Of a stretch of 64,000 bases of DNA, positions 12,839-57,700 are shown one piece after another. The position numbers and the translations under genes are program-made. The DNA is taken from the NCBI GenBank assembly GCA_012295275.1, contig CM022672.1, positions 35,588,001-35,652,000 on the forward strand, in the 5' to 3' direction. The stretch comes from Chrysomallon squamiferum (taxonomy: Eukaryota; Animalia; Mollusca). Every line of letters starts with the position of its first letter. Positions within the stretch are counted from its first letter, which is position 1. The notes under the pieces were generated by a model that was given only the letters and a program-made list of their open reading frames with translations, ran no database searches and was not told where the DNA came from.

Positions 12839-15066
12839 ACATTAATGATATAGAAAAATATTCTACAAAAAAAAAATAATACAAAATAATAATAACTGTA
12901 TCCTAATGGAACAAACTTGTTTAATTTACAGGTTTGAAAATAAAAATAGAGCTTGCTTTTGCAATATCACATATATATATTTTGTTTTTAAAAATCACTT
13001 AGGCATGAAATGTCAGAATTTCTCATTAAATGCTAGTGAAAATAGTTTGCATTCTTAATTGCCTCTTTAAGTCTATCTGCACTTTTATTTAAATTTATCT
13101 ATCAGAACACTGTGACTATTAAATAACAGTTGTAATCACATTAGCATAAATACATTGACACATGAACAAACACATACTCACACTCACGTAAAGCCATCAG
13201 AAATTACATATATATTTATTCAGATTTATTTGTTTGTTTCTTTATGTGTTATAATATCATATTTAATATTATTAATTTTTATATATATATATATATGTTA
13301 ATATATATATAAAATAAATGTTATCATTACTTTTTAATCCTATAAAGAAAAAAAAAAATTCAAATGATCAAATGAAACATTTAGATTTACCAGTTTGAAA
13401 ACCATGTTTTCTATTTATTAATTTACTGAAGTTTTTTAATATTGCAATGAAAAATTATGCATTTATGATTAATTACAGTTATTAAGCAGATATTATTACT
13501 ACATTGCAGTACATTTAGCTATTTATTTATTTAAATAAACATGTTTCAAATTTTAATATTTTTACAGCAGAAGAGTTGCTTGGGAACTGAGAGTACTTCA
13601 TTTTAATAAAATATTCACATAGTGACAGGGTACTTTATTTCAAGTAGCCATTTTGGTTAATCCCTACATTTTTAACAAAGAGCAAAAGTACATTTACGTG
13701 TAAAAGCTCTGTGATAAGTAAAAGTAAACATTCCATTCACACGCCTTTATTTGGTTTTCTTACTTTAAAATAGTATTAATAATAAACATGTTTTAAATAA
13801 TAGTTTAATAACTGTACTTACAATAGATTATACTGAAATACATGTTACACACACACACACACAAAAAAACTTGTATACACACAGATACATATGCAAACAC
13901 ACACATATACATACAGACACATCTAAATAAACACACACACTCGTACACCCACTTACACACATATACATAGATACACACACACAAACACACACATAAACGC
14001 ACTTATATACATAGATACACACACACACACAAACACACACATAAAGACAACTATATACATAGATACACACACACACACAAACACACACATAAACACACTT
14101 ATATACATAGATACACACACACAAACACACTTATATACATAGATACACACACACAAACACACATATGCATAGATACACACACACAAACACACACACAAAC
14201 ACACTTATATACATAGATACACACACACAAACACACACATAAAGACACTTATATCCAAAACCAAAACCCGCAAAACACCTGACAAATAAGCTGATATGTT
14301 ACATAGTTTTGGGAGAGAGATATAATTTCACGTTTTTACCTTTATTATTGCAACAGGTGTCAGAATGTTAAAACATTTACTCATCAAAAAAATCCACACA
14401 GAAACAAAAACAAAACAGACATTTACAATTAACACCACAATCTTAAAAATACTTAACTAAACTTACCTTAGTGAGAAATAAATCCTAAACAACCAAGTGA
14501 GTTTTCTAGTGATGATATTTTTTAAAATACTTAAACTAAAACTTACCTCAGTGAGAAATAAATCCTAAAATAGGAAAATGGATTTCACTGTGAAGATATT
14601 TGAGGTGTTGGCTCACAGGATGTTACTGAGCAGGCTGTGTTTAACAGAGTCCTTGTTAGCTGTGTTTAAACAGAGTCCTTGTTAGCTGTTGTGTATAGCA
14701 GGTCAGTGTGCATTCGGGTGAAACATGGCCTCTTCTGGTTTAAAAACCCATCTTCAACCTGTGTCTGTGTTGTTATTTATTTATTTCTGTGTGAGACTGC
14801 AAGCAGACTTTCTTGTCATGTTTTCAGTTAGCTTTGGGTTTTAAAAAAGTATCGTGTTTTGTTTGATCTGGTAATCTGACTCCATGGTTAGAGAGTCTCT
14901 GGTGTATCTGTAATGATTTACTGTGAATTTATCAATGAGAGAACAATGTGGCATGTTTCTGTTGTGTGTTGTGAGTCGTTTGTTTTTCTCTCTGTGTGTG
15001 TGTGAATGCAGGTATGCTTATTGGTGAATGCATGAGTGTGTGATTTTGTGAATGGTGAATGAATGA

Positions 15067-15112
<46 letters not shown>

Positions 15113-19579: not shown

Positions 19580-22500
19580 TTATTTAATTCCTATTCCAAG
19601 CGTGAAGGTTTTCCATGCTCCAGATTTACACTCTGCTGACTTCAGGTCAGGCATGGGGGGGGGAAGAGGCTGGATGCTGGGGCGTGTGTTTTTCAGAGGC
19701 TTTCTGCTGAACAAAATATCCTTCACTTTGGAGTTCACCTGCAACAGAAAATATTTTATTTCTTATTTGTGAGAAACCTAAAGCCATTTAGCATTTTAGA
19801 CACATAAGTTGACCAGTAATCTATTTCAAAAACAAAAATAGTCCATCATAAAAAGAAAACAGTATGAAAAATAAACCTGAACAAACATGCATATATATAG
19901 ATATATAGATATATAGATAGATAGATAGATTGAAAAATAAACCTGAACAAACATGCATATATATAGATATATAGATAGATAGATAGATAGATAGATATTA
20001 CTGAAAATACTGAATTTTTTTATTGTAGAGTTTTAGTGTTTTGCTTTCAGACAACATGTTAAATTTAGTCTTATGTAATAACTATATCCTTGGTTTTTCA
20101 GTATTACTGGGTAGGTTCATCAAACACACACACACACATACATACAGACATATACATACATATACAGTAATACATATACATTTTATTGTCAGACAAACAC
20201 AACCATAAACACTATACCTTACAGATACATAAACAAATAATAAAAGTGTGACACATTAAAACACTGGCCTGTACAAAATTACAAGTAAAAAAACTAATAT
20301 TTGGAAATATCACAAATATCTTCATACAAACCTTTTTCTTTTCCTGGATGTATTTTTCATTGAAATCTTTGTCAGTGATACATAATTTAATTGCACGTTT
20401 CTTCTTCGTTTCATTAATGGTGGATGTTGAAACTGTATCTGTTTCACATTGAGCAAACCTGCAAAACAACAAAACTTTGTTTGTCAACATCCTGTCTCCT
20501 GCTGATCAATGCAACACACTCACTATAAACAATACACACATATGTACACATAAACACACATATACATAAACACACACACAGATACACACATGCACACACA
20601 CATGCACACACACAAATACACACACACAAAATAGAGACTTACACACTTATACACACACATACACAGAAATATACACACAAACACACACAGACACATACAG
20701 ACACATACAGACACACAAACACGCACATGCATACATACATACACAAACAAATACACACATACAAATACACACACATACAAAAATACATAGACACACACAT
20801 ACACACACACACATACACAAACACATGCACACACACACACACATACACAGACACAAATATATACACACACACATACACACACATACTCACACATACACAC
20901 ACACATACACAAATACACAAATACATACACACTCACACACACATATACACACACACATACACACACACAAACACACATACACAAACACCCACATAAAGGT
21001 TGTCTACCTGATTGATGACAGAGGCTGTAGTTTGATGGGAGACGCTGTTGCGATGAGGTTCTGCAGAGTTCTGTGAGCACCAGCAGCTACGGGGCTGTTG
21101 ATAACATCACCAACAGACTTGCCTGGGAAGAGTCGCGAGAGGATGGAGACAACGTCTTCGTTCATTGGTTCAAGCAGCAAACCCAGAACCAGGTCCTGTC
21201 TGGCTCCGTTAGAATTCTGAAAACCACGTTTAACACTGAAAACCACGTTTAACACTGAAATGTTTAACACTGAAAACCACGTTTAACACTGAAAACCACG
21301 TTTAACACTGAAACGTTTAACACTGAAAACCACGTTTAACACTGAAAACCACGTTTAACACTGAAAACCACGTTTAACACTGAAAACCACGTTTAACACT
21401 GAAAACCACGTTCAACACTGAAAACCACGTTTAACACTGAAAACCATGTTTAACACTGAAAATCATGTTTAACCATGAAAACCACGTTTAACACTGAAAA
21501 TCATGTTTAACACTGAAAACCATGTTTAACATTGAAAACCACGTTTAACACTGAAAACCATGTTTAACATTGAAAACCACATTTAACACTGAAAACCATG
21601 TTTAACACAGCACTGATATGTTTTAATAACAAAGATTCACCCATGTTTAACACAGCACTGATATGTGTTTTTCTAACAAACATTCACCCATGTTTAACAC
21701 AGCACTGATATGTGTTTTTCTAACAAAGATTCACCCATGTTTAACACAGCACTGATATGTGTTTTTCTAACAAAGATTCACCCATGTTTAACACAGCACT
21801 GATGTTTTTTCTAACTAACATTCACCCATGTTTAACACAGCACTGATATGTGTTTTAATAACAAAGATTCACCCATGTTTAACACAGCACTGTTATGTCA
21901 AAGATTCACCCATTTTTACTAACAAACATTCACCCATGTTTAACACAGCACTGATATGTTTTACTAACAAAGATTCACCCATGTTTAACACAGAACTGAT
22001 ATGTTTTACTAACAAAGATTCACCCATGTTTAACACAGAACTGATATGTGTTTTACTAACAAAGATTCACCCATGTTTAACACAGCACTGATATGTTTTT
22101 ATAACAAAGATTCACCCATGTTTAACACAGCACTGATATGTGTTTTACTAACAAACATTCACCCATGTTTAACACAGCACTGATGTTTTTATCTAACAAA
22201 GATTCACCCATGTTTAACACAGCACTGATATGTGTTTTAATAACAAAGATTCACCCATGTTTCACACAGCACTGATATGTTTTACTAACAAACATTCACC
22301 CATGTTTAACACAGCACTGATATGTGTTTTAATAACAAACATTCACCCATGTTTAACACAGCACTGATGTTTTAATAACAAAGATTCACCCATGTTTAAC
22401 ACAGCACTGATATGTGTTTTAATAACAAACATTCACCCATGTTTAACACAGCACTGATATGTGTTTTTCTAACAAAGATTCACCCATGTTTAACACAGCA

Positions 22501-25500
22501 CTGTTATGTGTTTTACTAACAAACATTCACCCATGTTTAACACAGCACTGATATGTGTTTTTACTAACAAAGATTCACCCATGTTTAACACAGCACTGAT
22601 ATGTGTTTTAATAACAAACATTCACCCATGTTTAACACAGCACTGATATGTGTTTTACTAACAAACATTCACCCATGTTTAACACAGCACTGATATGTGT
22701 TTTACTAACAAAGATTCACCCATGTTTAACACAGCACTGATACATGTTTTACTAACAAACATTCACCCATGTTTAACACAGCACTGATATGTGTTTTAAT
22801 AACAAACATTCACCCATGTTTAACACAGAACTGATATGTGTTTTAATAACAAACATTCACCCATGTTTAACACAGCACTGTTATGTTTTACTAACAAACA
22901 TTCACCCATGTTTAACACAGCACTGATATGTGTTTTAATAACAAACATTCACCCATGTTTAACACAGCACTGTTATGTTTTTTTCACCCATGTTTAACAC
23001 AGCACTGATACGTTTTACTAACAAAGATTCACCCATGTTTAACACAGCACTGATATGTGTTTTAATAACAAACATTCACCCATGTTTAACACAGAACTGA
23101 TATGTGTTTTAATAACAGATTCACCCATGTTTAACACAGCACTGTTATGTGTTTTACTAACAAACATTCACCCATGTTTAACACAGCACTGATACATGTT
23201 TTACTAACAAAGATTCACCCATGTTTAACACAGCACTGATATGTGTTTTAATAACAAACATTCACCCATGTTTAACACAGCACTGATATGTGTTTAACAC
23301 AGCACTGATTTTTTACTAACAAAGATTCACCCATGTTTAACACAGCACTGATTTTTTAATAACAAACATTCACCCATGTTTAACACAGCACTGATATATG
23401 TTTTAATAACAAAGATTCACCCATGTTTAACACAGAACTGATATGTTTTACTAACAAAGATTCACCCATGTTTAACACAAAGAACCCATGTTTAACACAG
23501 CACTGATATGTGTTTTAATAACAAACATTCACCCATGTTTAACACAGCACTGATATGTTTTAATAACAAAGATTCACCCATGTTTAACACAGAACTGATA
23601 TGTTTTTAATAACAAAGATTCACCCATGTTTAACACAGCACTGATATGTTTTAATAGAACTGATATGTTATTTTTAATAACAAACATTCACCCATGTTTT
23701 ACACAGCACTGATATGTTTTACTAACAAAGATTGACCCATGTTTAACACAGCTCTGATAGACAGAAAATATAAATCTTCATTACCAGCTGGTGAAAAATC
23801 AATATAATTGATAATTAAAAAAATGAAACAAATAAGTAATTCAAAATTCTAATACTGAATAAGAGTCAAAAAAAAATTAAGAAAAATTATAGTAATAAAA
23901 ATAAAATAATGATATGCTTAAGCCTATCACCAAGTTTTTTCTTGCTCCATTTGAATTCTGAAATTTTTTTTAATACAGCATTGACATTTAAATAAAAAAG
24001 AAATGAAAACTCATGTTTGACTATTTTCTTCAAATAGAATACAAAAAATTTCAAATCCAGCTGGTGAAATATTAATATCATTATTGTCAAGACATATTTA
24101 GCTAATTACTTTCAATAAAATTTAAACCTTAATAATGAAGTATTAATCTGGCATCTTCAACTAATAACCAAAAAACACAAGAACCCCTATATCATGGATA
24201 AACTAATCCTGACTAATAAAGTTTGCTGATTTCTTTAATGAATGTTTGTAGAGATTGTAAATTAACTGAATAATTATAGACAAATAAACTACAGGATCTA
24301 ACCTCCATCATGTATCTGGTTCTTGCTCTGGAGATGTAGAACTGACCAACGCGTGGGTTGTACTGAATTGCCAGAGTGAACTTTGCCTCAGCTACCTGCA
24401 GTTTGTGAACATCACAGTTTTATAATCACAAACACACAACAAATAAAAATTAAAAAATAAAACTTATATCTACTGATTTTTTACATTTTGCCATACATTT
24501 GTCTTTCTTTTTCTCAAACCCTAATACAACAATGTTTTAAAATATAACTAAAATTAATAGTTTTTAGTTAAATCTATTTCCCCCCAAAAATTATGCATAA
24601 TCTTTCAACTAATGCAAAACTTATATAAAAACTGGTTTAAATGTCTTTCTTTCTTGAATTAAGAACAACTAAACAAGTGACATATTAAAACCTCAGATTA
24701 CTTTTATGTCTATTAAATGAGGTTATTATTTAATATATTTGTCGTATCACTATACTTTATTTTATTATTTTGTTAAGGTTTAATCAATCATAGTATATTC
24801 ATTTAGTGAATTACAAATTCACTTTTGATTAGAAGAATTAGTTAACAGCAGCATAAATATTTATAAAAACAGAACTAATAAACTAATACACAGTTTAAGA
24901 CAAAATAACAAACTGAATTTTAGAATTTGTGTAAGCCTAAAGAATATCTTAAAATTAACATGAAATGAATCCGTGGGTTGAAGAGTAATGAAATCTCAAC
25001 TGTAATAATTCATAAAACTGAAAAAGTTTTGAATATTTTTATTTATAACAAGGAATTGGTAAAACATGGCAGAAAGAGAAACTCACGGCATAGTTTTTGT
25101 TCTGATACTGGTTAATTCCAAACTCATGTTGAATTATGGCGATTCTTGCCTTCACAGTCAAGTCCATTGGGTCAATTTCCAGAGCTTGGTGATAATCTTG
25201 TAATGCAAAATTCAGCTCAGTTTGCTTGAAGAAACAGTCTGTAAAGAAAGAAATAATCTTGTAACACAAAATTCAGTTCAGTTTGCTTGAAGAAACAGTC
25301 TGTAAATAAAGAAATAATCTTGTAATGCAAAATTCAGTTCAGTTTGATTGAAGAAACAGTCAGTAAAGAAAGAAATAATCTTGTAACACAAAATTCAGCT
25401 TAGTTTGCTTGAAGAAACAGTCTGAAAAGAAATAATCTTGTAATGCAAAATTCAGCTCAGTTTGCTTGAAGAAACAGTCTGTAAATAAAGAAATAATCTT

Positions 25501-27667
25501 GTAACACAAAATTCAGTTCAGTTTGCTTTAAGAAACAGTCTGTAAATAAAGAAATAATCTTGTAACACAAAATTCAGCTCAGTTTCCTTGAAGAAACAGT
25601 CTGTAAAGAAAGAAATAATCTTGTAACACAAAATTCAGCTTAGTTTGTTTGAAGAAACAGTCTGAAAATAAAGAAATAATCTTGTAATGCAAAATTCAGC
25701 TCAGTTTGCTTGAAGAAACAGTCTGTAAATAAAGAAATAATCTTGTAACACAAAATTCAGTTCAGTTTCCTTGAAGAAACAGTCTGTAAATAAAGAAATA
25801 ATCTTGTAACACAAAATTCAGCTCAAAGAAACAGTCTGTAAAGAAAGAAATAATCTTGTAACACAAAATTCAGCTTAGTTTGTTTGAAGAAACAGTCTGA
25901 AAAGAAATAATCTTGTAATGCAAAATTCAGCTCAGTTTGAGGAAATATTTTGAGGAAACAGACTGCAAATAATGTTGTAAATCACAGTTCAGCTTGTTTT
26001 TTGTGAAGAAACAATCTGTAAAGAAAGAAATGTGTGTGTGTGTGTGTGTGTGAGAATTATACCTCCTCTGTTCACATAAAGACCCTTTTCATTTTTCTCT
26101 CCCTTTATAGCCTTGTTGAGGAGAATGATAGCTTCATCGTAGTAACCCTTCTCAAAGCACTCGACAGCGAAGTCGTTGTATGTGAGTAGTAGTTGACGTT
26201 GAGAGTCAGCGTAGACTGGATCTTCTTCATTGTGTTCACACTTATCCAGAGCAAGCAGGAAGTCATCGATGGCAGCGTTAAAATCATGTAACTTGCGGTG
26301 AAGAGCTCCTCTGAAATATTTAAGTAAATTCTTAGTTGTTACTGAACTAACTAAATCGTCAGGGAAAAAGAATGTTATTACTTTATGGCATACTTCATTA
26401 TTAGTAATGATTGGTTTACTAAAAACTCTAACATGGAAATACACAATAACATATTTCAAGCTCTGTGTGAAAGGTATAAAATCTGGAAAACAGTTTTTCA
26501 AAATGGTGATTATTTTTTTTTAATATACTCATGAAAACTAGTGAATTTAAATAAGATTATTTTAAACATGGAAATCAGTTTTGGTAGGTTTTTATTTTTC
26601 TGTTGTATGATATTTACTGAGTTATTTAATATAAAAATACCTGTGTACATGGTAATCAGCTAGTTATTTAATATAAAATACCTGTGTACATGGTAATATG
26701 CTTTGGCAGGGTTGGTTTCTATAGAGAGAGATTTACTGAGTTATTTAATATAAAATACCTGTGTACATGGTAATCTGCTTTGGCAGGGTTGGTTTCTATA
26801 GAGAGAGATTTACTGAGTTATTTAATATAAAATACCTGTGTACATGGTAATCAGCTAGTTATTTAATATAAAATACCTGTGTACATGGTAATCAGCTTTG
26901 GCAGGGTTGGTTTCTATAGCGAGTGAGATTTTCTGCAGAGCCTCTCTGTGTTTGCCCACCACATTGAGATTGATCGCCTGAGTCTTGTAGTCTGAGGCTC
27001 TGTTCTCTAAATTAATCATCATTGTCTTCGCTTCAGGGTGATCACTGTTGATAGTCAGAGCATCTTTGACATCATAGTAGCTTAGTGTTGTCTGAAAATA
27101 GCATCACGTATGGTTACAACACGTTTGTATGAATATTAATATTTGTTATTAACAATTATCAGAGACGAATGATTAACAAAGAAAAGCAAAGAAAACACAC
27201 AAGCACACAGACTGACACATACACACACATACACATGCAAACAGACAAATATAGACTCACACATCTCACACATACAGACGCATGTGCAAATAGACAAAAA
27301 ACACATACACATGAAAACAGACAGAGAAACGAGAAAATATAAATAATTTATAAATGCTGTGATTTCTGAATTTCTGCCTGTGAATCTCTGCATATAAGAT
27401 TCTTACTGATATGAATATCTCATGACTCTTTTCTGTTTTACTCCATCCTGACATTAATGACAGAGAGACATAAATATACATACCCATATACATACAAAAT
27501 ATATTTAAAATGCATCTTCAACAAAGAATTAAACTCAGATATATATATATCTATATATATATGTCTCTGTGTCTATATGTGTGTGTGTGTCTGTGTGTGT
27601 GAGAGAGAGAGAGAGGTGTGTGAGTAAAATTTCTCTCTCTCACTCTACATATATATATATATATTTA

Positions 27668-27703
<36 letters not shown>

Positions 27704-27854
27704 TGTATGTATGTATGTATGTATATATCTATGTATATGTGTATGTGTGTGTGTGTAATGGTTATGTAGATGTAGAGTTAGAGATATACTAACAAATACT
27801 GAAATATATACACATAAGAGATTGATGTAAGAAAACTCACATTTCTGAACATTT

Positions 27855-27901
<47 letters not shown>

Positions 27902-27950
27902 GACACACACACACAAACAGATGTAAGAAAACTCACATTTCTGAACATTT

Positions 27951-28025
<75 letters not shown>

Positions 28026-28071
28026 CAGACACACACACACAAACAGATGTAAGAAAACTCACATTTCAACA

Positions 28072-28115
<44 letters not shown>

Positions 28116-28120
28116 GACAG

Positions 28121-28153
<33 letters not shown>

Positions 28154-28441
28154 ACACAGACAAACACACACAGACACACACAGACAGACACACACACAAA
28201 CACACACACACACACACACACACAGACACAGTCACACACAAACAGACACATGCACACACAGTCACACACACAGTCACACACACAGACACACACACAAACA
28301 CACACACAAACAGACACACACACACACAGACACACACACAGGCACACACACACACACACACACAGACAAACACACACACACACCCAGACACACAGAAACA
28401 CACACACAGAAACACATACACAGACACACACACACACACAG

Positions 28442-28474
<33 letters not shown>

Positions 28475-28869: not shown

Positions 28870-28905
<36 letters not shown>

Positions 28906-31061: not shown

Positions 31062-31097
<36 letters not shown>

Positions 31098-42700: not shown

Positions 42701-45700
42701 GACAGAGAAACATATAAACATACAGACACAGAGAGTGGAAATATACACATGTATACACACAGACACAGAAACATATAAACATACAGACACAGACAGTGGA
42801 AATATACACATGTATACACACAGACACACAGACATATAAACATACAGACATAGAGATACGTAAACACAAATACACACACACAAATACACCAAGATACACA
42901 CACACATATATATATACAGGATAACACATAGACATACACAAACATACACACACACACACACACACACACAGATGTACTCACACATGATAACACAACACAC
43001 ACACCTACACACAAACACATACACACAGATGTACACACATGCATGATAACAGAACACACACCTACACACAAACACATACACACAGATGTACACACATGCA
43101 TGATAACACATGACATATACACAGACGTGCACACACACAGATGTGTATATTTTAATTTCTATATTTTTAAGATAAATATTTCATGAATAAATAAATTTGG
43201 TGTAAACAGATTTTTGAGATGTGTGCAGGTTTGAAATAAATATTAACTGAAAGCAAAGATAGTTCAGAAAGTGTGTATGTTTAAAATAGTTTATTAACTG
43301 TTGTTTAAAAATATGTTTAGCCTTTCATAATGGTGTAGATTAATATATATTACAGAAGGCATTGAAAATGAATGGGATAAAGTAATAAGATATTGTAAAA
43401 ATGGTTTTTTTTTAACTTTGTTTAAAGTGTATTTTTTACTCTGTGTATAATTTTCTTCCATAATGAAAAAGCAGTTGTTTTATTGCTTTGTTTTGTGTTT
43501 TAAGATTTATTTCACAAATTTATTTTATAAGCTTTATTAATGGTAAACTAAAAACAGAAACAACCCATACATCATGTTTGTTTCATAGTTTTTACAAGAT
43601 GTATAGTATTAATATTAAAAATTTCAAAATTGGCATTTGTCGATGTTGGTTTTATTTAATTTGACAGAGTTCTACAAGAAGTGCAGACTCTGACAAACAA
43701 GAGACAAGAAGTGAGAGTGAAGTATCACCACAGAGCTTCCTTGCAGGCCACAGAGAAACAGGCTGCGATACAGGAAGACGAGCGTCCCAGGTCGAAAAGT
43801 CCCAGTTCATACAACATCAACGAAAGAACAATAACTCTGCTGCCAAGTTCGACAGACTCAAAAGTGAGTCACGCTCGAAGTAACCCGACTGAGAGTGACA
43901 AGGGTGTGATGATCCGCGAAGACAAGAACCTGACATTCCAGATCACCCCGAGAAACCGAGGACACAAAGTGAACTACAAGATAGCCAAGTGCTACTCGAA
44001 TCTCAGGTCGAGAAGTAGGAAGCTGGACTTCACTCACGTGAGAAGCAGAGTGAATTCTGGGATTGATGTGCGTACAGTGATTAATGACTGCAAAACCAAA
44101 AGGATAACTGAACCGTCTAATTTGAATAACAGTTTACAGCTAGAGTTAGGCATGCAGGTGAAACCACTTAAAACAAATACTGGCAACACTTCCCCGTCCT
44201 CTGTTCCCATAGTAACAGTGAAGTACGAAGATGTGGATAAGCCAGTGAAACGAGGGAAGAAACCTGAAATCGTCACCGTGGTGTCGCAGTACATGTCTGA
44301 AAGTGAGGACGAATCAGAACACAGCAACAGAAATGACCGTTCAGCTGTGAGCAGAAGTCGGTCGAACTTGTCCAAAAATTACTACGAGGTTGCCATGAGA
44401 ACGGAACAAGGTAAAATGACAGGAGACAATGAAGAGAGTTCTCCTCCAGTGCTGTACAAAACCATCAAAACAATTGAGTTTGATGAGGCAGGCTACTCGC
44501 CTAAAGAAAGCACAGTGAAAAGTATCATCCCAGGAACAGTATCAACGACCAAACCAAGACAGAAACTGGCTGTGTCTGTTGACTACCTGGGCAGACAGAG
44601 GAGTTCCTCAGTTTCATCCAACACTTCAGTGAGAAAAGTAAGTCACACGTCTGTGTTATGTCTGTGCTTCATACTGTGTGTTGTGTCTGTGTATATGTGT
44701 GTTGTGTCTGTGTATTCTGTGTCTGTTGACTACCTGGGCAGACAGAGGAGTTCCTCAGTGTCATCCAACACTTCAGTGAGAAAAGTAAGTCATATATGTG
44801 TGTTATGTCTGTGCTTCATGCTGTGTATTGTGTCTGTGTATATGTGTGTTGTGTCTGTGTATTCTGTGTCTGTTGACTACCTGGGCAGACAGAGGAGTTC
44901 CTCAGTGTCATCCAACACTTCAGTGAGAAAAGTAAGTCACATGTCTGTGTTATGTCTGTGCTTCATGCTGTGTGTTGTGTGTTGTGTCTGTGTATGTGTG
45001 TTGTGTCTGTGTATTCTGTGTCTGTTGACTACCTGGGCAGACAGAGGAGTTCCTCAGTGTCATCCAACACTTCAGTGAGAAAAGTAAGTCACATGTCTGT
45101 GTTATGTCTGTGCTTCATGCTGTGTGTATGTGTGTTGTGTCTGTGTATATGTGTGTTGTGTCTGTGTATTCTGTGTCTGTTGACTACCTGGGCAGACAGA
45201 GGAGTTCCTCAGTGTCATCCAACACTTCAGTGAGAAAAGTAAGTCACATGTCTGTGTTATGTCTGTGCTTCATGCTGTGTGTATGTGTGTTGTGTCTGTG
45301 TATATGTGTGTTGTGTCTGTGTATTCTGTGTCTGTTGACTACCTGGGCAGACAGAGGAGTTCTTCAGTGAGAAAAGTAAGTCAGACTGTGTCTGTTGACT
45401 ACCTGGGCAGACAGAGGAGTTCCTCAGTGTCATCCAACACTTCAGTGAGAAAAGTAAGTCACATGTCTGTGTTATGTCTGTGCTTCATGCTGTGTGTATG
45501 TGTGTTGTGTCTGTGTATATGTGTGTTGTGTCTGTGTATTCTGTGTCTGTTGACTACCTGGGCAGACAGAGGAGTTCTTCAGTGAGAAAAGTAAGTCACA
45601 CGTCTGTGTTATGTCTGTGCTTCATGCTGTGTGCATGTGTGTTGTGTCTGTGTATTCTGTGTCTGTTGACTACCTGGGCAGACAGAGGAGTTCCTCAGTG

Positions 45701-47790
45701 TCATCCAACACTTCAGTGAGAAAAGTAAGTCACATGTGTGTGTTATGTCTGTGCTTCATGCTGTGTATATGTGTGTTGTGTCTGTGTATTCTGTGTCTGT
45801 TGACTGTTCAAGCAGACAGAGGAGTTCCTCAGTGTCATCCAACACTTCAGTGAGAAAAGTAAGTCACATGTCTGTGTTATGTCTGTGCTTCATGCTGTGT
45901 GGTGTGTTGTGTCTGTGTATATGTGTGTTGTGTTTTGTAAATTCTGTGTCTGTTGACTACCTGGGCAGACAGAGGAGTTCTTCAGTGAGAAAATATTTAT
46001 TCTTTTGTCTGTTTGTTTTGTCTTTTTTTCATGCTGTGTGCATGTGTGTTGTGTCTGTGTATTCTGTGTCTGTTGACTACCTGGGCAGACAGAGGAGTTC
46101 CTCAGTGTCATCCAACACTTCAGTGAGAAAAGTAAGTCACATATGTGTGTTATGTCTGTGCTTCATGCTGTGTATATGTGTGTTGTGTCTGTGTATTCTG
46201 TGTCTGTTGACTACCTGGGCAGACAGAGGAGTTCCTCAGTGTCATCCAACACTTCAGTGAGAAAAGTAAGTCACACGTCTGTGTTATGTCTGTGCTTCAT
46301 GCTGTGTGTTGTGTCTGCATGTGTGTGTTAGCCTGTTCAAGCGTGTGTGTGTACATGAGGCATGTCACTATTTGTGTTTCGTGTGTACTTGCTGGTCACT
46401 GTGCTGTGCATGCTTCTGTGTTTTATAAACATACAGTTATAATTTACAACATAATGAAAATATTTATTCTTTTGGGGTATTTGTTTTTTAATTTTTTTCA
46501 AAAGTATTATGGCTGACAAATATTAATTTGTAGTTACTATAGTTACATCAGTCAGATGACAAACTGATACTGCATTAGGTAAATGAGTGCCACAGTAACT
46601 ACTCTTTTACAGTCAGCAGCAAAGGATCTTTTATTTATATTGTCAAACTCTCTTGACTAGGAAAGGACAAGACATAGTCTTTAATAAACCAGTCTCCAGG
46701 CACTTGTTTGACTGGAAAACAGGCAAATAAATACACGACAAAACTGGATATTTCACAGCAAAACCTTTGTATCAGACAAACTATCATATAAATAACCAGT
46801 AGTACATGACAGAATAAATTCAGTCTCTTTAATCTTGTTTATACCAATCTATAAAGATTACTATTAGTTATGTAATCTGTTTATTGAAATGACAGAAATT
46901 AGAACTTTAGCCTGTTAACAAAATTTTGTTATGGTTTTAGGATGACCACAGGTCAATTCAGATCCCTGGACCATCACAAGAGGAAAATGTTTCAAAATCA
47001 GAACAGAGTTTGAAAAAGGAAAACACTGAAGATAAAAAGCTGGACGACAAACTTCTAAACATGATGTCAAAATGGGCAAAGGTCAGTCTCAGTGTGAGCA
47101 GAATAATGTGTTGAGTGATATGTGATCATGTGTTGTATGTAATAATAATGTGGTAATGTGTGATATGTGATCATGTGTTGTATGTAATAATAATGTGGTA
47201 ATGTGTGATATGTGATCATGTATTGTATGTAATAATATGTGGTAATGTGTGATATGTGATGATGTGTTGTATGTAATAATGTGGTAATGTGTGATATGTG
47301 ATCATGTGTTGTATGTAATAATAATATGTGGAAATGTGTGATATGTGATGATGTGTTGTATGTAATAATAATCTGGTAATGTGTGATATGTGATGATATG
47401 TTGTATGTAATAACAATGTGGTAATGTGTGATATGTGATCATGTGTTGTATGTAATAATAATATGTGGTAATGTGTGATATGTGATCATGTGTTGTATGT
47501 AATAATATGGTAATGTGTGATATGTGATCATGTGTTGTATGTAATAATATGGTAATGTGTGATATGTGATCATGTGTTGTATGTAATAATAATATGTGTT
47601 AATGTGTGATATCTGATCATGTGTTGTATGTAATAATATGTTGTATTATGTGATATGTGGTCATACAGTATATGATTACATATCATACATAATCACATAT
47701 TATTATATAAAACATGCATGTACCATTTATAATTCATTCAGACATCCACAGTGTCAGAAAATTACAGAGTCAAGGAAAGAAAACACTCAT

Positions 47791-47828
<38 letters not shown>

Positions 47829-47962
47829 CAACAGTAAATGTAACAGTAAAATACAGTGAAGAAGAATATTTACAATTGTTTACAAGAATATTAATTTACA
47901 TTACTTTTAATTTTCTAATATAAACATAAATTATTTTTGATTTTTAGACTCCTATCAAAAAT

Positions 47963-47994
<32 letters not shown>

Positions 47995-48041
47995 TATACA
48001 CACAAACACACACATACACATATATACAAACACACACACAT

Positions 48042-48096
<55 letters not shown>

Positions 48097-48729
48097 CACA
48101 CACACACACCTATAAAATGTACATACAGTGAATAATGTAATGTGAATAAATGAAGCTTTACAAAGTTTTGTTTGTTTTCAGCCTCCTATGAAAAGTCGCA
48201 CAGTGCAACCTAACCAGAGGAGAAACAAGCAGACTAAAACTCAGCTGAGACGAGACGCAGATTCTCAAAGTTCAACCTCGGAAATGTCGGAGATTTCAGC
48301 AAAAAACTTGAGTTCATCAAAACAGGATGCACTGGTACAGTCCGAAACAGAGTCAATAACCCTTGTAAGAGTCTCATTTGTTTACACAACTCAAGTTTTA
48401 GTTAATGTACGAGGTTTGTTTAGAGAAATACTGTAATCAATAAAGTGAATTTGACATTTAGCTGGACAACAAAAATACTATATTGTATAAAATATTGTTT
48501 TATGACACATTTAAAAAAAAAGAAAATTTAAATTTAAAATTAATCATTCTATTGATATTTCACCACATCATTTTAGATATAATGATAATATATTATTATT
48601 ATTATTATTATTATTTATTTATTTATTTTATTTATTATTATTAGTTTTATTATTATTATTATTATTATTAATGTTATTATTATTTTTATTATTATTGTTA
48701 ATTAATTTATTTATTGTTATTATTAATTA

Positions 48730-48793
<64 letters not shown>

Positions 48794-51700
48794 GTTGTTA
48801 TTATTATGATTATTATGATTATTATTATTAATATTTTGCAATGTGTAAATGATGTTTAAAATTTTTGTTTTTTCGTTTTGTTACAGAGTCGACCTGACAG
48901 TGGCAGCACAGTTAAATCTCGACCAGCTTCTTGTTTTCAGTCTTCTCTTCAGAGAATGAAGTAAGACAAAGTTTATATCCAAGTTTATAGACATTTCAGA
49001 GAATGAAGTAAGACAAAGTTTATATCCAAGTTTATAGACATTTCAGAGAATGAAGTAAGACAAAGTTTATATCCAAGTTTATAGACATTTCAGAGAATGA
49101 AGTAAGACAAAGTTTATATCCAAGTTTATAGACATTTCAGAGAATGAAGTAAGACAAAGTTTATATCCAAGTTTATAGACATTTCAGTAAGTGAAGTAAG
49201 ACAAAGTTTATAGATATTTCAGAGAATGAAGTAAGACAAAGTTTATAGATATTTCAGTAAGTGAAGTAAGACAAAGTTTATAGATATTTCAGAGAATGAA
49301 GTAAGACAAAGTTTATAGATATTTCAGTAAGTGAAGTAAGACAAAGTTTATAGATATTTCAGAGAATGAAGTAAGACAAAGTTTATAGATATTTCAGAGA
49401 ATGAAGTAAGACAAAGTTTATATCCAAGTTTATAGACATTTCAGTAAGTGAAGTAAGACAAAGTTTATAGATATTTCAGTAAGTGAAGTAAGACAAAGTT
49501 TATAGATATTTCAGAGAATGAAGTAAGACAAAATTTATAGATATTCAGATAATGAAGTAAGACAAAGTTTATAGATATTTCAGTAAATGAAGTAAGACAA
49601 AGTTTATAGATATTTCAGAGAATGAAGTAAGACAAACATTGTATCCGTTTATAGCTATTTCAGTAAATGAAGTAAGACACACATTTTATCCAAGTTTATA
49701 GCTATTTCAGTAAATGAAGTAAGTCAAAGTTTATAGATATTTCAGAGAATGAAGTAAGACACACATTTTATCCAAGTTTATAGATATTTCAGAGAATGAA
49801 GTAAGACAAACATTCTATCCAAGTTTATAGATATTTCAGTAAATGAAGTAAGTCAAAGTTTATAGATATTTCAGAGAATGAAGTAAGACAAACATTGTAT
49901 CCAAGTTTATAGCTATTTCAGTAAATGAAGTAAGTCAAAGTTTATAGATATTTCAGAGAATGAAGTAAGACAAACATTGTATCCAAGTTTATAGCTATTT
50001 CAGTAAATGAAGTAAGTCAAAGTTTATAGATATTTCAGAGAATGAAGTAAGACAAAGTTTATAGATATTTCAGAGAATGAAGTAAGACAAACATTGTATC
50101 CAAGTTTATAGCTATTTCAGTAAATGAAGTAAGACAAACATTCTATCCAAGTTTATAGATATTTCAGAGAATGAAGTAAGACAAACATTGTATCCAAGTT
50201 TATAGCTATTTCAGTAAATGAAGTAAGACACACATTTTATCCAAGTTTATAGCTATTTCAGTATGATAATACTATTTGCATACATACTCATACACATATA
50301 GATTCACCAATATACACATATTTAGAGAGTGTCACATTAATGTTACATCCAGCTTCAATCCAGTTGGTTGAGACTTCAGTGTGACTGGCCATTAAATCAG
50401 TTACAGTACTTGATGCAGTGAGACTGCTGTCAGATCCTGTGACAGATTGTACTGTAGTCCCAGCCGTCAATCCTAGGACTTTTCTTTAATGCTTAAAATA
50501 TCACAATTTACTGTGATGCCATTCATTAACATGACCTAAGAAATCTTAACTTTTCTCTAGAGTAGTTTCAGGTGATTTTGCACTTTCTGAATGCAGGAAA
50601 TAGCAAAGAAACATCATCAAATACCGCACTTTTTGAAGTGTTGTCATGGAAAGAAAATATTTAAAAGAGAAGATTGCATTGTGAAATGATGATAAATTAC
50701 TGAAATAAAAATGATTAAAAATGAAACTTTTTGTTTTCATAATTCACCATTCTTACCAGTGTACATTGTCAGTAGATGAAGGCAGTTTATAATGACTGTT
50801 CACTCATCTTTGATTACAACTTGGAAACTGTACAGACTGCTGTTAACACCTTAATATTTCATCTCTTGATAACTGGAAATCTTGACACTGAAATAGCACT
50901 GACCATTAAGCCAGCCTCATAAAACAAGGGTAAAAACATCAAGTTAAAGTCTCAGCCTACAGTGAACTCAGATCTACTTTTGTATATGTTTTTTTTTTTT
51001 CTGAACACTTCAGAGTAAGTCACAAAAAATAGTGTTTTGTTAACTTTATTTTATTAACTGTTTTCTTCAGGTCGTTCGACACTCGGCGAATTCAGTCAGC
51101 TGCCCTAGCTGCAGAAAGAGAACACAGTAGGTAGACCTAGTTTATAGTACACCAGTGTGTATAGTATACCTAGTTTATAGTACACCAGTGTGTATAGTAT
51201 ACCTAGTTTATAGTACACCAGTGTGTATAGTATAACCTACTTTATAGTACACCAGTGTGTATAGTATAACCTACTTTATAGTACACCAGTGTGTATAGTA
51301 TACCTAGTTTATAGCACACCAGTGTGTATAGTATACCTAGTTTATAGCACACCAGTGTGTATAGTATACCTAGTTTATAGTACACCAGTGTGTATAGTAT
51401 ACCTAGTTTATAGTACACCAGTGTGTATAGTATACCTAGTTTATAGTACACCAGTGTGTATAGTACACCTAGTTTATAGTACACCAGTGTGTATAGTACA
51501 CCTAGTTTATAGTACACCAGTGTGTATAGTACACCTAGTTTATAGTACACCAGTGTGTATAGTACACCTAGTTTATAGTACACCAGTGTGTATAGTATAA
51601 CCTAGTTTATAGTACACCAGTGTGTATAGTATAACCTAGTTTATAGTACACCAGTGTGTATAGTATAACCTAGTTTATAGTACACCAGTGTGTATAGTAT

Positions 51701-54700
51701 ACCTAGTTTATAGTACACCAGTATGTATAGTATAACCTAGTTTATAGTACACCAGTGTGTATAGTATACCTAGTTTATAGTACACCAGTGTGTATAGTAT
51801 AACCTAGTTTATAGTACACCAGTGTGTATAGTATAACCTAGTTTATAGTACACCAGTGTGTATAGTACACCTAGTTTATAGTACACCAGTGTGTATAGTA
51901 TACCTAGTTTATAGTATACCTAGTTTATAGTACACCAGTGTGTATAGTACACCTAGTTTATAGTACACCAGTGTGTATAATACACCTAGTTTATAGTACA
52001 CCAGTGTGTATAGTATACCTAGTTTATAGTATACCTAGTTTATAGTACACCAGTGTGTATAATACACCTAGTTTATAGTACACCAGTGTGTATAGTATAA
52101 CCTAGTTTATAGTACACCAGTGTGTATAGTATACCTAGTTTATAGTATACCTAGTTTATAGTACACCTAGTTTATAGTACACCAGTGTGTATAGTACACC
52201 TAGTTTATAGTACACCAGTGTGTATAGTATACCTAGTTTATAGTACACCAGAGTTTATCAAACAAAACTGTTTTATAATTTTACTTATTTATTTAGTTAA
52301 AATGAATCAAAAGTCTAGAAATATATGATATAGCACACCTAGTTTATCAAACAAAACTGTTTTATAATTTTACTTATTTAGTTAAAATGATAAAAAAATG
52401 CACAAATATATGATATAGCACACCTAGTTTATCAAACAAAACTGTTTATAATTTTACTTATTTATTTAGTTAAAATGAATCAAAAATCTAGAAATAGATG
52501 ATATAGCACACCTAGTTTATCAAACAAAACTGTTTTATAATTTTACTTATTTATTTGGTTAAAATGAATCAAAAATCTAGAAATAGATCATATAGGTACA
52601 CCAGTGTTAATCAGGCAGACAGAATTATTGTATAAATGGACATATGACTTTGTTTTCGAATTTTATGTGGATCAGAGATCTAGTTTATGTATTTCTGTTA
52701 GAACATGGACCAGAGCACTACTTTCAGAGTATTTATAAAAAAAAACATTATTAACATTTAATTTAATTTATTTTCTTTTTTAAGTGAAATTATCATGAGC
52801 AGAAGACAGTAATCACTTTGAAAAATATTGAATTTTCATTAAGAGAAGCATTATATAATTTGAAACATATTTATTTTTTGTTAAAGAAAACATATAATTT
52901 GCAAAATGCTGATTTTTTGTTAATGGAATGGAGGTGTAAAATTTTAAATGTTTACTTTAAAGGGAAATATGCTGTGTACACGCGGTCGTTTGCTCGACGC
53001 CAGATCATGCAGAGTCCTCCTCCACCAACAGACGTCGTTTACCTCAACACCAAGAAACATCCAGTAAGTAGTTGTTTACCTCAACACCAAGAAACATCCA
53101 GTAAGTAGTTGTTTACCTCAACACCAAGAAACATCCAGTAAGTAGTTGTTTACCTCAACATGAAGAAACATCCAGTAAGTAGTTGTTTACCTTAACACTA
53201 AGAAACATCCAGTAAGTAGTTGTTTACCTCAACACCAAGAAACATCCAGTAAGTAGTTGTTTACCTCAACACCAAGAAACATCCAGTAAGTAGTTTTATA
53301 CCTTAACACCAAGAAACATCCAGTAAGTAGTTGTTTACCTTAACACAAAGAAACATCCAGTAAGTAGTTGTTTACCTCAACATGAACAAACATCCAGTAA
53401 GTAGTTGTTTACCGTAACATGAACAAACATCCAGTAAGTAGTTGTTTACCTCAACACCAAGAAACATCCAATAAGTAGTTGTTTACCTTAACACGAAGAA
53501 ACATCCAGTAAGTAGTTTTTTACCTTAACACCAAGAAACATCCAGTAAGTAGTTGTTTACCTTAACACAAAGAAACATCCAGTAAGTAGTTTTATACCTT
53601 AACACCAAGAAACATCCAGTAAGTAGTTTTATATCTCAACACAAAGAAACATCCAGTAAGTAGTTGTTTACCTTAACACAAAGAAACATCCAGTAAGTAG
53701 TTTTATACCTTAACACCAAGAAACATCCAGTAAGTAGTTTTATACCTCAACACAAAGAAACATCCAGTAAGTAGTTGTTTACCTCAACATGAAGAAACAT
53801 CCAGTAAGTAGTTGTTTACCTTAACACTAAGAAACATCCAGTAAGTAGTTTTATACCTTAACACCAAGAAACATCCAGTAAGTAGTTGTTTACCTCAACA
53901 CCAAGAAACATCCAGTAAGTAGTTGTTTACCTCAACACCAAGAAACATCCAGTAAGTAGTTGTTTACCTCAACACCAAAAAACATCCAGTAAGTAGTTTT
54001 ATACCTTAACACCAAGAAACATCCAGTAAGTAGTTGTTTACCTTAACACAAAGAAACATCCAGTAAGTAGTTTTATACCTTAACACCAAGAAACATTCAG
54101 TAAGTAGTTGTTTACCTTAATACCAAGAAACATCCAGTAAGTAGTTTTATATCTTAACACCAAGAAACATCCAGTAAGTAGTTGTTTACCGTAACACAAA
54201 GAAACATCCAGTAAGTAGTTTTATACCTTAACACCAAGAAACATCCAGTAAGTAGTTGTTTACCTTAACACGAAGAAACATCCAGTAAGTAGTTGTTTAC
54301 CTCAACATGAACAAACATCCAGTAAGTAGTTGTTTACCTTAACACGAAGAAACATCCAGTAAGTAGTTTTATACCTTAACACCAAGAAACATCCAGTAAG
54401 TAGTTGTTTACCTTAACACGAAGAAACATCCAGTAAGTAGTTTTATACCTTAACACCAAGAAACATTCAGTAAGTAGTTTTATACCTTAACACCAAGAAA
54501 CATCCAGTAAGTAGTTTTATACCTTAACACCAAGAAACATCCAGTAAGTAGTTTTATACCTTAACACCAAGAAACATCCAGTAAGTAGTTGTTTACCTCA
54601 ACATGAAGAAACATCCAGTAAGTAGTTTTATATCTCAACACAAAGAAACATCCAGTAAGTAGTTGTTTACCTTAATACCAAGAAACATCCAGTAAGTAGT

Positions 54701-57700
54701 TGTTTACCTCAACATGAAGAAACATCCAGTAAGTAGTTGTTTACCTCAACACCAAGAAACATCCAGTAAGTAGTTGTTTACCTCAACATGAACAAACATC
54801 CAGTAAGTAGTTGTTTACCTCAACATGAAGAAACATCCAGTAAGTAGTTGTTTACCTCAACACCAAGAAACATCCAGTAAGTAGTTGTTTACCTCAACAT
54901 GAACAAACATCCAGTAAGTAGTTGTTTACCTCAACATGAAGAAACATCCAGTAAGTAGTTGTTTACCTCAACACCAAGAAACATCCAGTAAGTAGTTGTT
55001 TACCTTAACACAAAGAAACATCCAGTAAGTAGTTGTTTACCTTAACACGAAGAAACATCCAGTAAGTAGTTGTTTACCTTAACACCAAGAAACATTCAGT
55101 AAGTAGTTTTATACCTTAACACCAAGAAACATTCAGTAAGTAGTTTTATACCTTAACACCAAGAAACATCCAGTAAGTAGTTTTATACCTTAACACCAAG
55201 AAACATCCAGTAAGTAGTTTTATACCTTAACACCAAGAAACATCCAGTAAGTAGTTGTTTACCTTAATACCAAGAAACATCCAGTAAGTAGTTGTTTACC
55301 TCAACATGAAGAAACATCCAGTAAGTAGTTGTTTACCTCAACACCAAGAAACATCCAGTAAGTAGTTGTTTACCTCAACATGAACAAACATCCAGTAAGT
55401 AGTTGTTTACCTCAACATGAAGAAACACCCAGTAAGTAGTTGTTTACCTTAACACCAAGAAACATCCAGTAAGTAGTTGTTTACCGTAACACGAAGAAAC
55501 ATCCAGTAAGTAGTTGTTTACCTCAACACCAAGAAACATCCAGTAAGTAGTTGTTTACCTTAACATGAAGAAACATCCAGTAAGTAGTTGTTTACCTCAA
55601 CATGAAGAAACATCCAGTAAGTAGTTGTTTACCTCAACACCAAGAAACATCCAGTAAGTAGTTTTATATCTCAACACAAAGAAACATCCAGTAAGTAGTT
55701 GTTTACCTTAACACAAAGAAACATCCAGTAAGTAGTTTTATACCTTAACACCAAGAAACATCCAGTAAGTAGTTTTATACCTTAACACCAAGAAACATCC
55801 AGTAAGTAGTTGTTTACCTCAACACCAAGAAACATCCAGTAAGTAGTTTTATACCTTAACACAAAGAAACATCCAGTAAGTAGTTGTTTACCTCAACACG
55901 AAGAAACATCCAGTAAGTAGTTTTATACCTTAACACCAAGAAACATCCAGTAAGTAGTTGTTTACCGTAACACGAAGAAACACCCAGTAAGTAGTTTTAT
56001 ACCTTAACACCAAGAAACATTCAGTAAGTAGTTTTATACCTTAACACCAAGAAACACCCAGTAAGTAGTTTTATACCTTAATACCAAGAAACATCCAGTA
56101 AGTAGTTTTATACCTTAACACCAAGAAACATCCAGTAAGTAGTTGTTTACCTCAACATGAAGAAACATCCAGTAAGTAGTTTTATACCTTAACACCAAGA
56201 AACATCCAGTAAGTAGTTGTTTACCTCAACACCAAGAAACATCCAGTAAGTAGTTGTTTACCTCAACACGAAGAAACATCCAGTAAGTAGTTGTTTACCT
56301 CAACATGAAGAAACATCCAGTAAGTAGTTGTTTACCTTAACACAAAGAAACATCCAGTAAGTAGTTTTATACCTTAACACCAAGAAACATCCAGTAAGTA
56401 GTTTTATACCTTAACACCAAGAAACATCCAGTAAGTAGTTGTTTACCTCAACACCAAGAAACATCCAGTAAGTAGTTGTTTACCTCAACACCAAGAAACA
56501 TCCAGTAAGTAGTTGTTTACCTCAACATGAAGAAACATCCAGTAAGTAGTTGTTTACCTTAACACAAAGAAACATCCAGTAAGTAGTTTTTTACCTTAAC
56601 ACCAAGAAACATCCAGTAAGTAGTTTTATACCTTAACACCAAGAAACATCCAGTAAGTAGTTGTTTACCTCAACACCAAGAAATATCCAGTAAGTAGTTG
56701 TTTACCTCAACATGAAGAAATATCCAGTAAGTAGTTTTATACCTTAACACCAAGAAACATCCAGTAAGTAGTTTTTCTTGTTTGAATATTTTATTTGAAG
56801 TGCAATATGTTGTTATATGAATTAAAATTTGAAAAATATGTTGTTTCTATTTTATTCTCAATATTCAAAATTAAAAATTATAATTATATTCATTAAAATT
56901 AACAAATACAATTTTGCTCTTTTATTTTCATTCTTCAAGATACAGATATTAATTACAGTCATCATATTTAATTTGTTTTAATTAAAATGTTTCCAGGATG
57001 TGGATACTGAGGAAAGTCTTGCCTGTCAGGAAATGCAGAACAAACTTGCCTCCCTTGGTCTGAACATCAGAAAAGAAACACTAGAAAGGTTTTCTGCTTT
57101 ACTTTGTAGACTGTCACTGAGTGTCAAACTGAATTTTATTTCTTTCAGCTGTTAATTTGTAAATTGTCATCTTGTACTGAATAAAACCTAACTTTATTTA
57201 CTTTGGCAGTTACCATTTATATTTTAATTCTTCAATCTGTCAATTTCAAAATTATCATTATATTGTTACCCATTGAACAAAATTAATCTTGGCTAATTAA
57301 TTTCTATATTACTTGTGTATGTCCATCTACTGAATTAACATGAAGATTTAACTTTTTCTTGAAAATATTGTTATTTCAAAAAAACTTTTTTTTTTTTTTT
57401 TCTTTTTTGTCAAGATAGTCTTTGTTAGAAGTGGATTGTATATATATTTTTTTTATACACAAATTATTTAATATTTTTTGGAAAGCAGCATAAAACAAAA
57501 ACTATAGAGCATTTTATCAATAAATCTGTTTATGTCTACTTAGAACATTAAATACAAACTAAGCTTTATAATATTTGATTTGTACGTTTTAGACATTTTA
57601 CGAAAAAAGTTTGAGACAAATAGATTGTTATTTTTATTTTTTTTATGGTATTTTTTTTTTATCCTTTACATTAATAAGTTTCTACATCTGCTGTTCAGCC

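What the first reader, a model, noticed from the sequence alone, without database searches (positions are those of the whole stretch)
14461..56775. Recurrent tandem amplification of splice junctions: many intronic repeats are copies of their own exon-intron boundary
Seen: in TTC16, the unknown gene and one putative UTR exon, on both strands, about 13 junctions carry extra copies of the splice site, usually with exon edge. TTC16 donors: 31168 (+2), 29183 (+1), 28505 (+3), 26876 (+4). TTC16 acceptors: 29520 (+1, at 29969), 25239 (~+12), 21217 (~+19). Unknown gene: donors 37569 (~+22), 44638 (~+12), 48961 (~+30), 53064 (~+100) and acceptor 39984 (+1). Putative UTR donor 14546 (+1). The units are unrelated to each other (19-150 bp), so this is not a dispersed satellite or transposon family; each arose locally. 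Inference: a lineage-specific mutational process targets exon edges (for example nucleosome-boundary breaks, R-loops or spliceosome-coupled repair followed by slippage or rolling-circle expansion), and the spliceosome tolerates many decoy sites. I do not recognise this as an established class.
Basis: partly seen in the sequence, partly recalled or inferred. Interest (0 to 1): 0.88.

Follow-up and report, generated by a model that had tools for sequence, protein, structure and literature searches.

The report
Snail "mirage" repeats at exon edges
In two genes of what is likely a snail, nine exon ends have been copied with their splice signal 1 to 100 times into the neighbouring intron, a known oddity called "mirages" in lancelets that is probably harmless here, although repeats in this stretch also crowd at exon edges two to four times more than chance predicts, for a reason still unproven.

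Summary
The window is molluscan: a TTC16 exon is 79% identical to Gigantopelta aegis. Of 13 claimed sites, 9 carry exon-plus-intron copies at modelled junctions and 2 carry only AG plus intron. 37569 is probably not a junction, and 14546 is unverified. RNA contigs use the exon-proximal site at the five TTC16 repeat junctions they pin down, and DNA contigs of other samples hold short copies. Such repeats are named "mirages" in amphioxus and are known in human F7, CBS and others. This scan noted them before in at least 7 other genomes, abalone included. With arrays collapsed to one unit, junction-spanning arrays are 2.0-3.6-fold above chance (P 0.02-0.0005). Purely intronic arrays within 30 nt of an exon are 3-6-fold above chance. 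So the bias concerns exon edges, not splice signals. It rests on one window picked for the pattern, with a hand-cleaned catalogue. Verdict: a dense new example of a known kind; the edge bias is the one open question.

The parts
19583..34505 (-). TTC16-like gene, 11 coding exons (34251-34505, 31169-31365, 29184-29519, 28506-28635, 26877-27091, 26063-26310, 25087-25238, 24303-24395, 21008-21216, 20332-20458, last exon from 19738)
   Evidence: Open frame with GT-AG; 71% identity to P0001; RNA contig of X8 laid on four of the exons
35324..59910 (+). Uncharacterised gene, 16 exons, ortholog of G. aegis LOC121382718
   Evidence: 52% identity; one frameshift inside exon 40731-40861; exon 1 end covered by RNA contigs
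30840..31215 (-). Mirage: donor 31168 with 42 nt of exon, 2 extra copies, unit 115-155 bp with microsatellite inside
   Evidence: a DNA contig of X6 carries the copy-specific end (table 7)
29024..29215 (-). Mirage: donor 29183 with 28 nt of exon, 1 extra copy, 98 bp
27819..28525 (-). Mirage: donor 28505 with 14 nt of exon, 2-3 extra copies spaced by TC/CA microsatellites
   Evidence: RNA loose end shows the exon ending at 28506
26620..26927 (-). Mirage: donor 26876 with 21 or more nt of exon, 4 extra copies, units 41 and 77 bp
   Evidence: RNA joint 26310|26877 in X7 and X8, DNA pieces at raised depth in X5 and X9
25188..25945 (-). Mirage: acceptor 25239 with 47 nt of exon, 12 extra copies, 61 bp
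21212..21608 (-). 19-bp array with acceptor AG 21217 plus intron, no real exon part; runs into a related 47-bp array up to 23762
29513..30009 (-). Acceptor 29520: AG plus about 30 nt of intron copied once, 449 bp upstream
39905..40013 (+). Mirage: acceptor 39984 with 22 nt of exon, 1 extra copy, 59 bp
44565..46316 (+). Mirage: donor 44637 with 68 nt of exon, 11 extra copies, 134-155 bp; the first decoy is in frame and stop-free (49 aa)
48944..50266 (+). Mirage: donor 48960 with 13 nt of exon, 31 extra copies, 47/35 bp
53037..56773 (+). Mirage: donor 53063 with 27 nt of exon, 100 extra copies, 37 bp
37551..38357 (+). 25-bp intronic array containing GTAAG; claimed as donor 37569 but probably not at an exon
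14457..14573 (-). Consensus donor at 14546 with one copy 80 bp away; putative UTR exon, not verified
41914..42858 (+). 53-bp intronic array starting 4 nt after donor 41909, splice site not included
51129..52240 (+). 33-bp intronic array starting 2 nt after donor 51126
58360..58839 (+). 31-bp intronic array starting at donor 58359, GT not part of the repeated unit
47108..47664 (+). 45-bp intronic array starting 26 nt after donor 47081
6569..6720 (-). 37-bp intronic array ending 10 nt before the acceptor of the RING-finger gene at 6558
30..141 (+). 25-bp intronic array ending 2 nt before the exon at 144. Other exon-flanking arrays within 30 nt: 900-1155, 16364-16423, 28657-28790, 41672-41769, 59628-59741

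Best explanation
These are mirage-type minisatellites: local tandem copies of an exon-intron boundary that lie in the intron and are skipped in the TTC16 transcript where checked, and they likely arise because ordinary DNA-level duplication in this repeat-rich genome is moderately biased toward exon edges. Steps: (1) a 20-150 bp stretch is duplicated in place (shown by the unrelated local units), probably by slippage or break repair (inferred). (2) If the stretch covers a donor, the first copy stays the working site and the rest become intron; for an acceptor, the last copy does (shown for five TTC16 junctions by RNA contigs, inferred for the others). (3) The pair then grows by normal minisatellite turnover to as many as 100 copies (inferred). 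(4) The seeding rate is likely 2-4 times higher near exon edges, whether or not the splice signal is copied, perhaps because of the composition or chromatin step there (enrichment shown in this window only; cause untested).
For: All copies of the 9 spanning junctions lie on the intron side. X7 and X8 join 26310 to 26877 and continue into the exon ending at 28506. On the 2261-nt X8 contig, the gap between laid pieces is exactly 466 nt = 130 + 336, so no decoy at 28505, 29183, 29520 or 31168 is included. For 6 of 7 donors the nearest decoy would shift the frame, which fits tolerance by skipping. Enrichment after collapsing arrays: spanning 9 of 36 against 2.5-3.7 expected (P 5e-4 to 7e-3); purely intronic within 30 nt 10 of 24 against 1.7-2.7 (P 3e-6 to 1e-4). 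Conditioned on each array's own intron: 9 of 28 against 4.5 (P 0.018) and 8 of 16 against 2.6 (P 7.5e-4). The same anatomy and silence are described for amphioxus mirages and human F7.
Against: One window, chosen because the pattern stood out, so the P values are optimistic. The 45-event catalogue was cleaned by hand with junctions in view. With low-complexity DNA removed and all events kept, spanning enrichment fell to P 0.05-0.06 in two of eight settings (there counted as 8). None of the 12 junctions of the two genes outside the finding has a spanning copy. An unchecked scan note reports chance-level rates in unselected genes of another invertebrate (e1-7908734). No polarity of growth from the exon (8 of 15 arrays) and no uniform microhomology were found, so the mechanism has no sequence signature here. 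Splicing of the unknown gene's mirages and of TTC16 acceptors 25239 and 21217 was not shown directly by RNA.
Confidence: 0.5

Rival explanations
1. Retention bias: duplications are born evenly, but deep-intron arrays are removed by deletions while arrays anchored against an exon are shielded, or arrays drift until selection stops them at an exon.
For: It explains why arrays lacking the splice signal also abut exons. Collapsed introns are short (median about 535 bp), as expected with strong turnover.
Against: Shielding on one side should give only a modest excess (inference). Many edge arrays are young-looking, with 88-98% matches, and drift cannot put exon sequence into a unit.
Confidence: 0.2
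2. Chance plus window choice: in a region that is about 40% tandem repeat with short introns, several arrays hit junctions anyway, and the scan picked an extreme window.
For: 2.5-4.5 of the 9 spanning arrays are expected by chance. 0 of 12 junctions outside the two named genes are spanned. Scan note e1-7908734 (unchecked) found chance rates elsewhere.
Against: The unselected class (intronic, within 30 nt) is enriched 3-6-fold, and 4 of its 10 members lie at the genes outside the finding.
Confidence: 0.2
3. A splicing-coupled or RNA-templated process copies the splice junction itself.
For: 9-11 arrays include the splice dinucleotide, in two genes and on both strands.
Against: Units join exon to its own intron, never exon to exon, and extend 13-68 nt into the exon with no fixed register. 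At least as many arrays stop 2-29 nt short of the exon.
Confidence: 0.06
4. The copies are functional alternative splice sites or spare exons.
For: The first decoy at donor 44637 is 147 nt away, in frame and stop-free. Proximal decoys are used in human CBS and 6-16 (PMC1557585).
Against: 6 of 7 nearest donor decoys shift the frame. The TTC16 contigs show the plain form, though contigs drop rare variants.
Confidence: 0.02
5. Assembly artefact.
For: The long arrays (1.3-3.7 kb) were not checked against reads. The window has at least one probable one-base error (exon 40731-40861).
Against: Copies differ from each other (82-98% matches). DNA contigs of X5 and X9 hold pieces of the 26876 array at about 3-6 times the flanking depth, one of them across a copy-to-copy joint. 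X6 holds the copy-specific end at 31212.
Confidence: 0.02

Closest known systems
Amphioxus 'mirages' (Adh3, globins BflGb6 and BflGb9, troponin C, PGBD5). PMC3087553: section 16 and passages read. PMC3902484: passages read. The original Canestro 2002 paper is not held and is known here only through these citations.
   Same: Minisatellite-like tandem copies of an exon-intron boundary at both 5' and 3' edges. Units of 10-160 bp there, 37-155 bp here. Several per gene, and normal splicing is kept.
   Different: A mollusc, not a cephalochordate. Up to 100 copies (3-7 in the globin and PGBD5 cases read). Length instability was not tested here. The passages read give no enrichment test and call the mechanism unclear.
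Human VNTRs whose first unit spans an exon-intron boundary: F7 IVS7 (37 bp), CBS IVS13, 6-16, lamin B2, PDGF. PMC1557585: abstract and passages read.
   Same: The donor is reiterated down the intron and the most upstream site is used (oriented scanning in F7).
   Different: The human cases cited are one array per gene, all at donors. Here there are 9 in two neighbouring genes, 2 of them at acceptors. In CBS and 6-16 two proximal decoys are also used, which was not seen here.
Intron gain by tandem genomic duplication (PMC4974935, PMC3443670: search listing and start of abstract only; the model itself recalled and summarised in PMC3087553 section 16)
   Same: Local duplication that involves splice signals.
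   Different: There, an exonic duplication creates a new intron. Here, existing boundaries are copied into existing introns, and no new intron was found against G. aegis, whose intron positions could not be seen.

Membership tests
Mirage minisatellites | Head-to-tail repeat whose unit spans an exon-intron boundary | tested here: met
   9 of 62 modelled junctions, exon part 13-68 nt
Mirage minisatellites | The boundary is a real, used splice junction | tested here: met
   RNA contigs for donors 26876, 28505, 29183 and 31168; protein homology and open frame for the other five
Mirage minisatellites | Minisatellite-size units, unrelated between loci | tested here: met
   37-155 bp units; no shared sequence beyond 11-12 nt
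Mirage minisatellites | Extra copies do not disturb normal splicing | tested here: met
   Exact exon chain in the X8 contig over TTC16 exons 1-6.
Mirage minisatellites | Copy number varies between alleles or somatically | not testable with these tools
   Only short-read contigs are served; contig depth is no copy number
Dispersed satellite or transposon family | The same unit at several unlinked places | tested here: not met
   None of the 13 units has a hit outside its own array within the window; the rest of the genome is not held
Intron gain by tandem duplication | A new intron between duplicated copies, absent in relatives | not testable with these tools
   No genomic DNA of close relatives; the protein alignment shows no inserted repeat

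The most novel reading that the evidence does not exclude
Exon edges in this snail lineage, and perhaps in many marine invertebrates, are genome-wide hot spots where tandem duplications are born at 3-6 times the intronic rate. Mirages would then be only the visible subset of a wider exon-edge mutation bias, filtered by splicing so that exon-bearing copies survive mostly at donors (7 of 9) and intron-only arrays mostly at acceptors (9 of 13; Fisher P 0.08).
Probability: 0.3. Interest if true: 0.6.

Novelty: new member of a known kind. Interest (0 to 1): 0.25.

Why it matters
As it stands this is a dense molluscan example of a named curiosity. It is a practical trap for gene annotation, since tblastn hits the exon copies (97 hits in the 37-bp array), and a natural test bed for how one donor is chosen among 100 near-identical ones. 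If the exon-edge excess holds genome-wide and among young duplications, it would show that gene structure steers where minisatellites are born. That would explain why mirages recur, which the amphioxus paper leaves open, and would supply raw material for exon extension and intron gain.

Tried and rejected
No whole genome is held, so no unselected genes could be tested. The scan holds no notes on this genome. Pfam scans failed on frame errors, so the names ZGPAT, RING/TRIM-like and kelch are recalled from motifs, not from a call. RNA contigs of X7 and X8 give no cover at 37413-37600; this fits there being no exon at 37569 but proves nothing, since repeats there may be masked. A 90-nt open frame before 37568 exists, with a poor acceptor, so a rare cassette exon is not excluded. 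Polarity test: the exon-proximal end was the more homogeneous in 8 of 15 arrays, and mismatch to the real exon did not rise with distance in the 100-, 31- and 11-copy arrays (rho 0.07, 0.04, 0.16); the one positive case (25238) rests on misaligned distal copies. Rejected. Microhomology: 5 nt at 48944, about 8 nt at 44565, 0-4 nt in four clean small duplications, unreadable in seven (by eye). Inconclusive. Metagenome scan for TTC16 relatives: 11 short loci at 55-95% identity, none judged a close relative, with few tandem repeats (0-4 TRF rows each) and no stacked exon hits like the window's. Too small to be a baseline. Literature searches for a genome-wide test of repeat enrichment at invertebrate exon edges found none (for repeats in a related snail, listing only). 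The library lacks most subscription papers. PMC7615360 (passages read) shows that meiotic break repair makes side-by-side duplications with microhomology in humans; it is an analogy only. Supplements were not opened; additional files 4-7 of PMC3087553 may hold unit alignments that bear on the comparison.
Full report
Setting. The window is 64 kb of AT-rich animal DNA. TRF covers 42% of it, and 39% with periods of 15 or more. No whole genome is held. One TTC16 exon finds 42 relatives, the best being Gigantopelta aegis at 79%, with other molluscs mostly at 54-66%. The organism is therefore likely a gastropod related to G. aegis; the species was not determined.

Gene models. TTC16 lies on the minus strand with 11 GT-AG exons and gives 706 aa, 71% identical to the G. 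aegis protein. The unknown gene lies on the plus strand with 16 exons and is 52% identical to G. aegis LOC121382718, with Haliotis relatives at 35-36%. A G-patch gene (ZGPAT-like, name recalled) gives 11 more junctions from an open frame and GT-AG alone (its last acceptor corrected by one base). A nested RING-finger gene gives one acceptor. That makes 62 modelled junctions of unequal support.

Observation. A junction-centred 20-mer search found exon-plus-intron copies at 9 of 62 junctions: donors 31168 (+2), 29183 (+1), 28505 (+2 or 3), 26876 (+4), 44637 (+11), 48960 (+31), 53063 (+100), and acceptors 25238 (+12) and 39984 (+1). All their copies lie in the intron. Acceptors 29519 and 21216 are copied with AG and intron only. 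Its donor at 37569 is probably not a junction, because the ortholog runs directly from exon 1 into the exon at 39082. Its UTR donor at 14546 has a copy, but the exon is unverified. The 13 units share nothing beyond 11-12 nt and have no hits elsewhere in the window.

Reality and splicing. Nine of 11 listed runs hold the gene, in 3 studies; 4 of the 9 may be the source of the window. Only contigs are served, and I laid 5 runs on two stretches free of long arrays. RNA contigs of X7 and X8 join 26310 to 26877 and run on into the exon that ends at 28506. The 2261-nt X8 contig lays on four exons, and the gap between two of them is exactly the 466 nt of exons 3 and 4. So the first donors at 26876, 28505, 29183 and 31168 and the last acceptor at 29520 are used, and no copy is included. 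The remaining 851 nt fit exons 7-10 plus 270 nt of the last exon, but the 3' end is free, so this does not prove use of acceptors 25239 and 21217. DNA contigs of X5 and X9 hold the 26876 array at raised depth, one across a copy-to-copy joint. X6 holds the copy-specific end of the 31168 repeat. The long arrays were not checked against reads.

More than chance? A naive null fails, because 40% of positions lie in arrays. I collapsed each array to one unit and asked how often a unit of that length would touch a junction. A junction-blind clustering gave 40 events. I cleaned these by hand into 45, splitting chance merges and setting unit lengths, with junctions in view. Pairs with fewer than 8 supporting 20-mers were dropped. 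Dropping 5 arrays that adjoin another array and 4 outside genes leaves 36. Of these, 9 span a junction against 2.5 expected, or 3.7 if low-complexity DNA is removed (P 5e-4 and 7e-3). Of 24 arrays that do not touch a junction, 10 end within 30 nt of an exon against 1.7-2.7 expected (P 3e-6 and 1e-4). The strictest version conditions on each array's own intron and leaves out the 14.7-kb intron: 9 of 28 against 4.5 (P 0.018) and 8 of 16 against 2.6 (P 7.5e-4). The weakest settings gave P 0.05-0.06 for spanning arrays. So a third to a half of the mirages are expected by chance, and the excess is modest. None of the 12 junctions outside the two named genes is spanned, but 4 of them have an array within 30 nt.

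How it likely works. A short local duplication occurs (shown), probably by slippage or break repair (inferred). If it covers a donor, the first copy keeps working and the rest become intron. This is shown for TTC16 and matches the scanning result for human F7. For 6 of 7 donors the nearest decoy would shift the frame, so skipping is required; the exception is 44637, whose first decoy adds 49 stop-free codons. The pair then expands like any minisatellite (inferred). Exon-bearing arrays sit mostly at donors (7 of 9) and intron-only ones mostly at acceptors (9 of 13), which hints at a splicing filter but is not significant (P 0.08). Because arrays need not contain the splice signal and never join exon to exon, a DNA-level bias at exon edges fits better than a splicing-coupled one. 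Tests for a mechanistic signature failed: no polarity and mixed microhomology. Retention against deletion, and plain chance with window choice, remain live rivals.

Known kinds. Tandem copies of exon-intron boundaries are named mirages in amphioxus Adh3 and globins, where splicing stays normal and the mechanism is called unclear (PMC3087553 section 16). They are also described in troponin C and PGBD5 (PMC3902484 passages). Human F7, CBS, 6-16, lamin B2 and PDGF carry the donor form (PMC1557585 passages). I found these papers before consulting the scan's notes. Those notes list 17 similar findings in at least 7 genomes, of which 8 were shown, including annelid, urchin and abalone; they disagree on enrichment (unchecked). 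Four searches found no genome-wide test of repeat enrichment at invertebrate exon edges, in a library that lacks most subscription papers.

Verdict. The feature is real for 11 of 13 sites, 9 of them true mirages. It is a new member of a known kind, probably neutral. Interest 0.25. The boldest reading left open is a genome-wide birth bias of tandem duplications at exon edges (probability 0.3, interest 0.6 if true).

Noticed in passing
window 40731-40861: The unknown gene changes frame inside this exon near a run of C at about 40797; the ortholog matches one frame before and another after. Probably a one-base assembly error.
   Followed up: partly
window 4383-6558 (minus): A single coding exon of about 724 aa with an N-terminal RING-like motif (name recalled), nested antisense in the 14.7-kb intron of the ZGPAT-like gene. 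Its ATG is 1 nt after an acceptor, so a 5' UTR exon must lie upstream.
   Followed up: partly
window 34505-35324: TTC16 and the unknown gene are head to head, about 820 bp between start codons.
   Followed up: no
window 7531-7575 (minus): Two or three donor-like motifs about 22 nt apart, possibly an old decayed mirage at another UTR exon of the RING-finger gene.
   Followed up: no
window 21212-23762 and 51129-52597: Compound arrays in which one unit turns into a longer one that shares part of it (19 to 47 bp; 33 to 89 bp).
   Followed up: no
window 31330-31361 (minus): A CAA/CAG repeat gives a run of ten glutamines in TTC16 exon 2, absent from the G. aegis protein.
   Followed up: no
window 32585-33000 and 35865-35913: Many unrelated contigs lay here in DNA and RNA runs, so these look like pieces of dispersed repeats.
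   Followed up: no
window 8753-12208: A 46-bp, 77-copy array deep in an intron, over 2 kb from any modelled junction: large arrays also form away from exons.
   Followed up: partly
window 63200-64000 (minus): 3' end of a kelch-repeat-like gene (name recalled from motifs).
   Followed up: no
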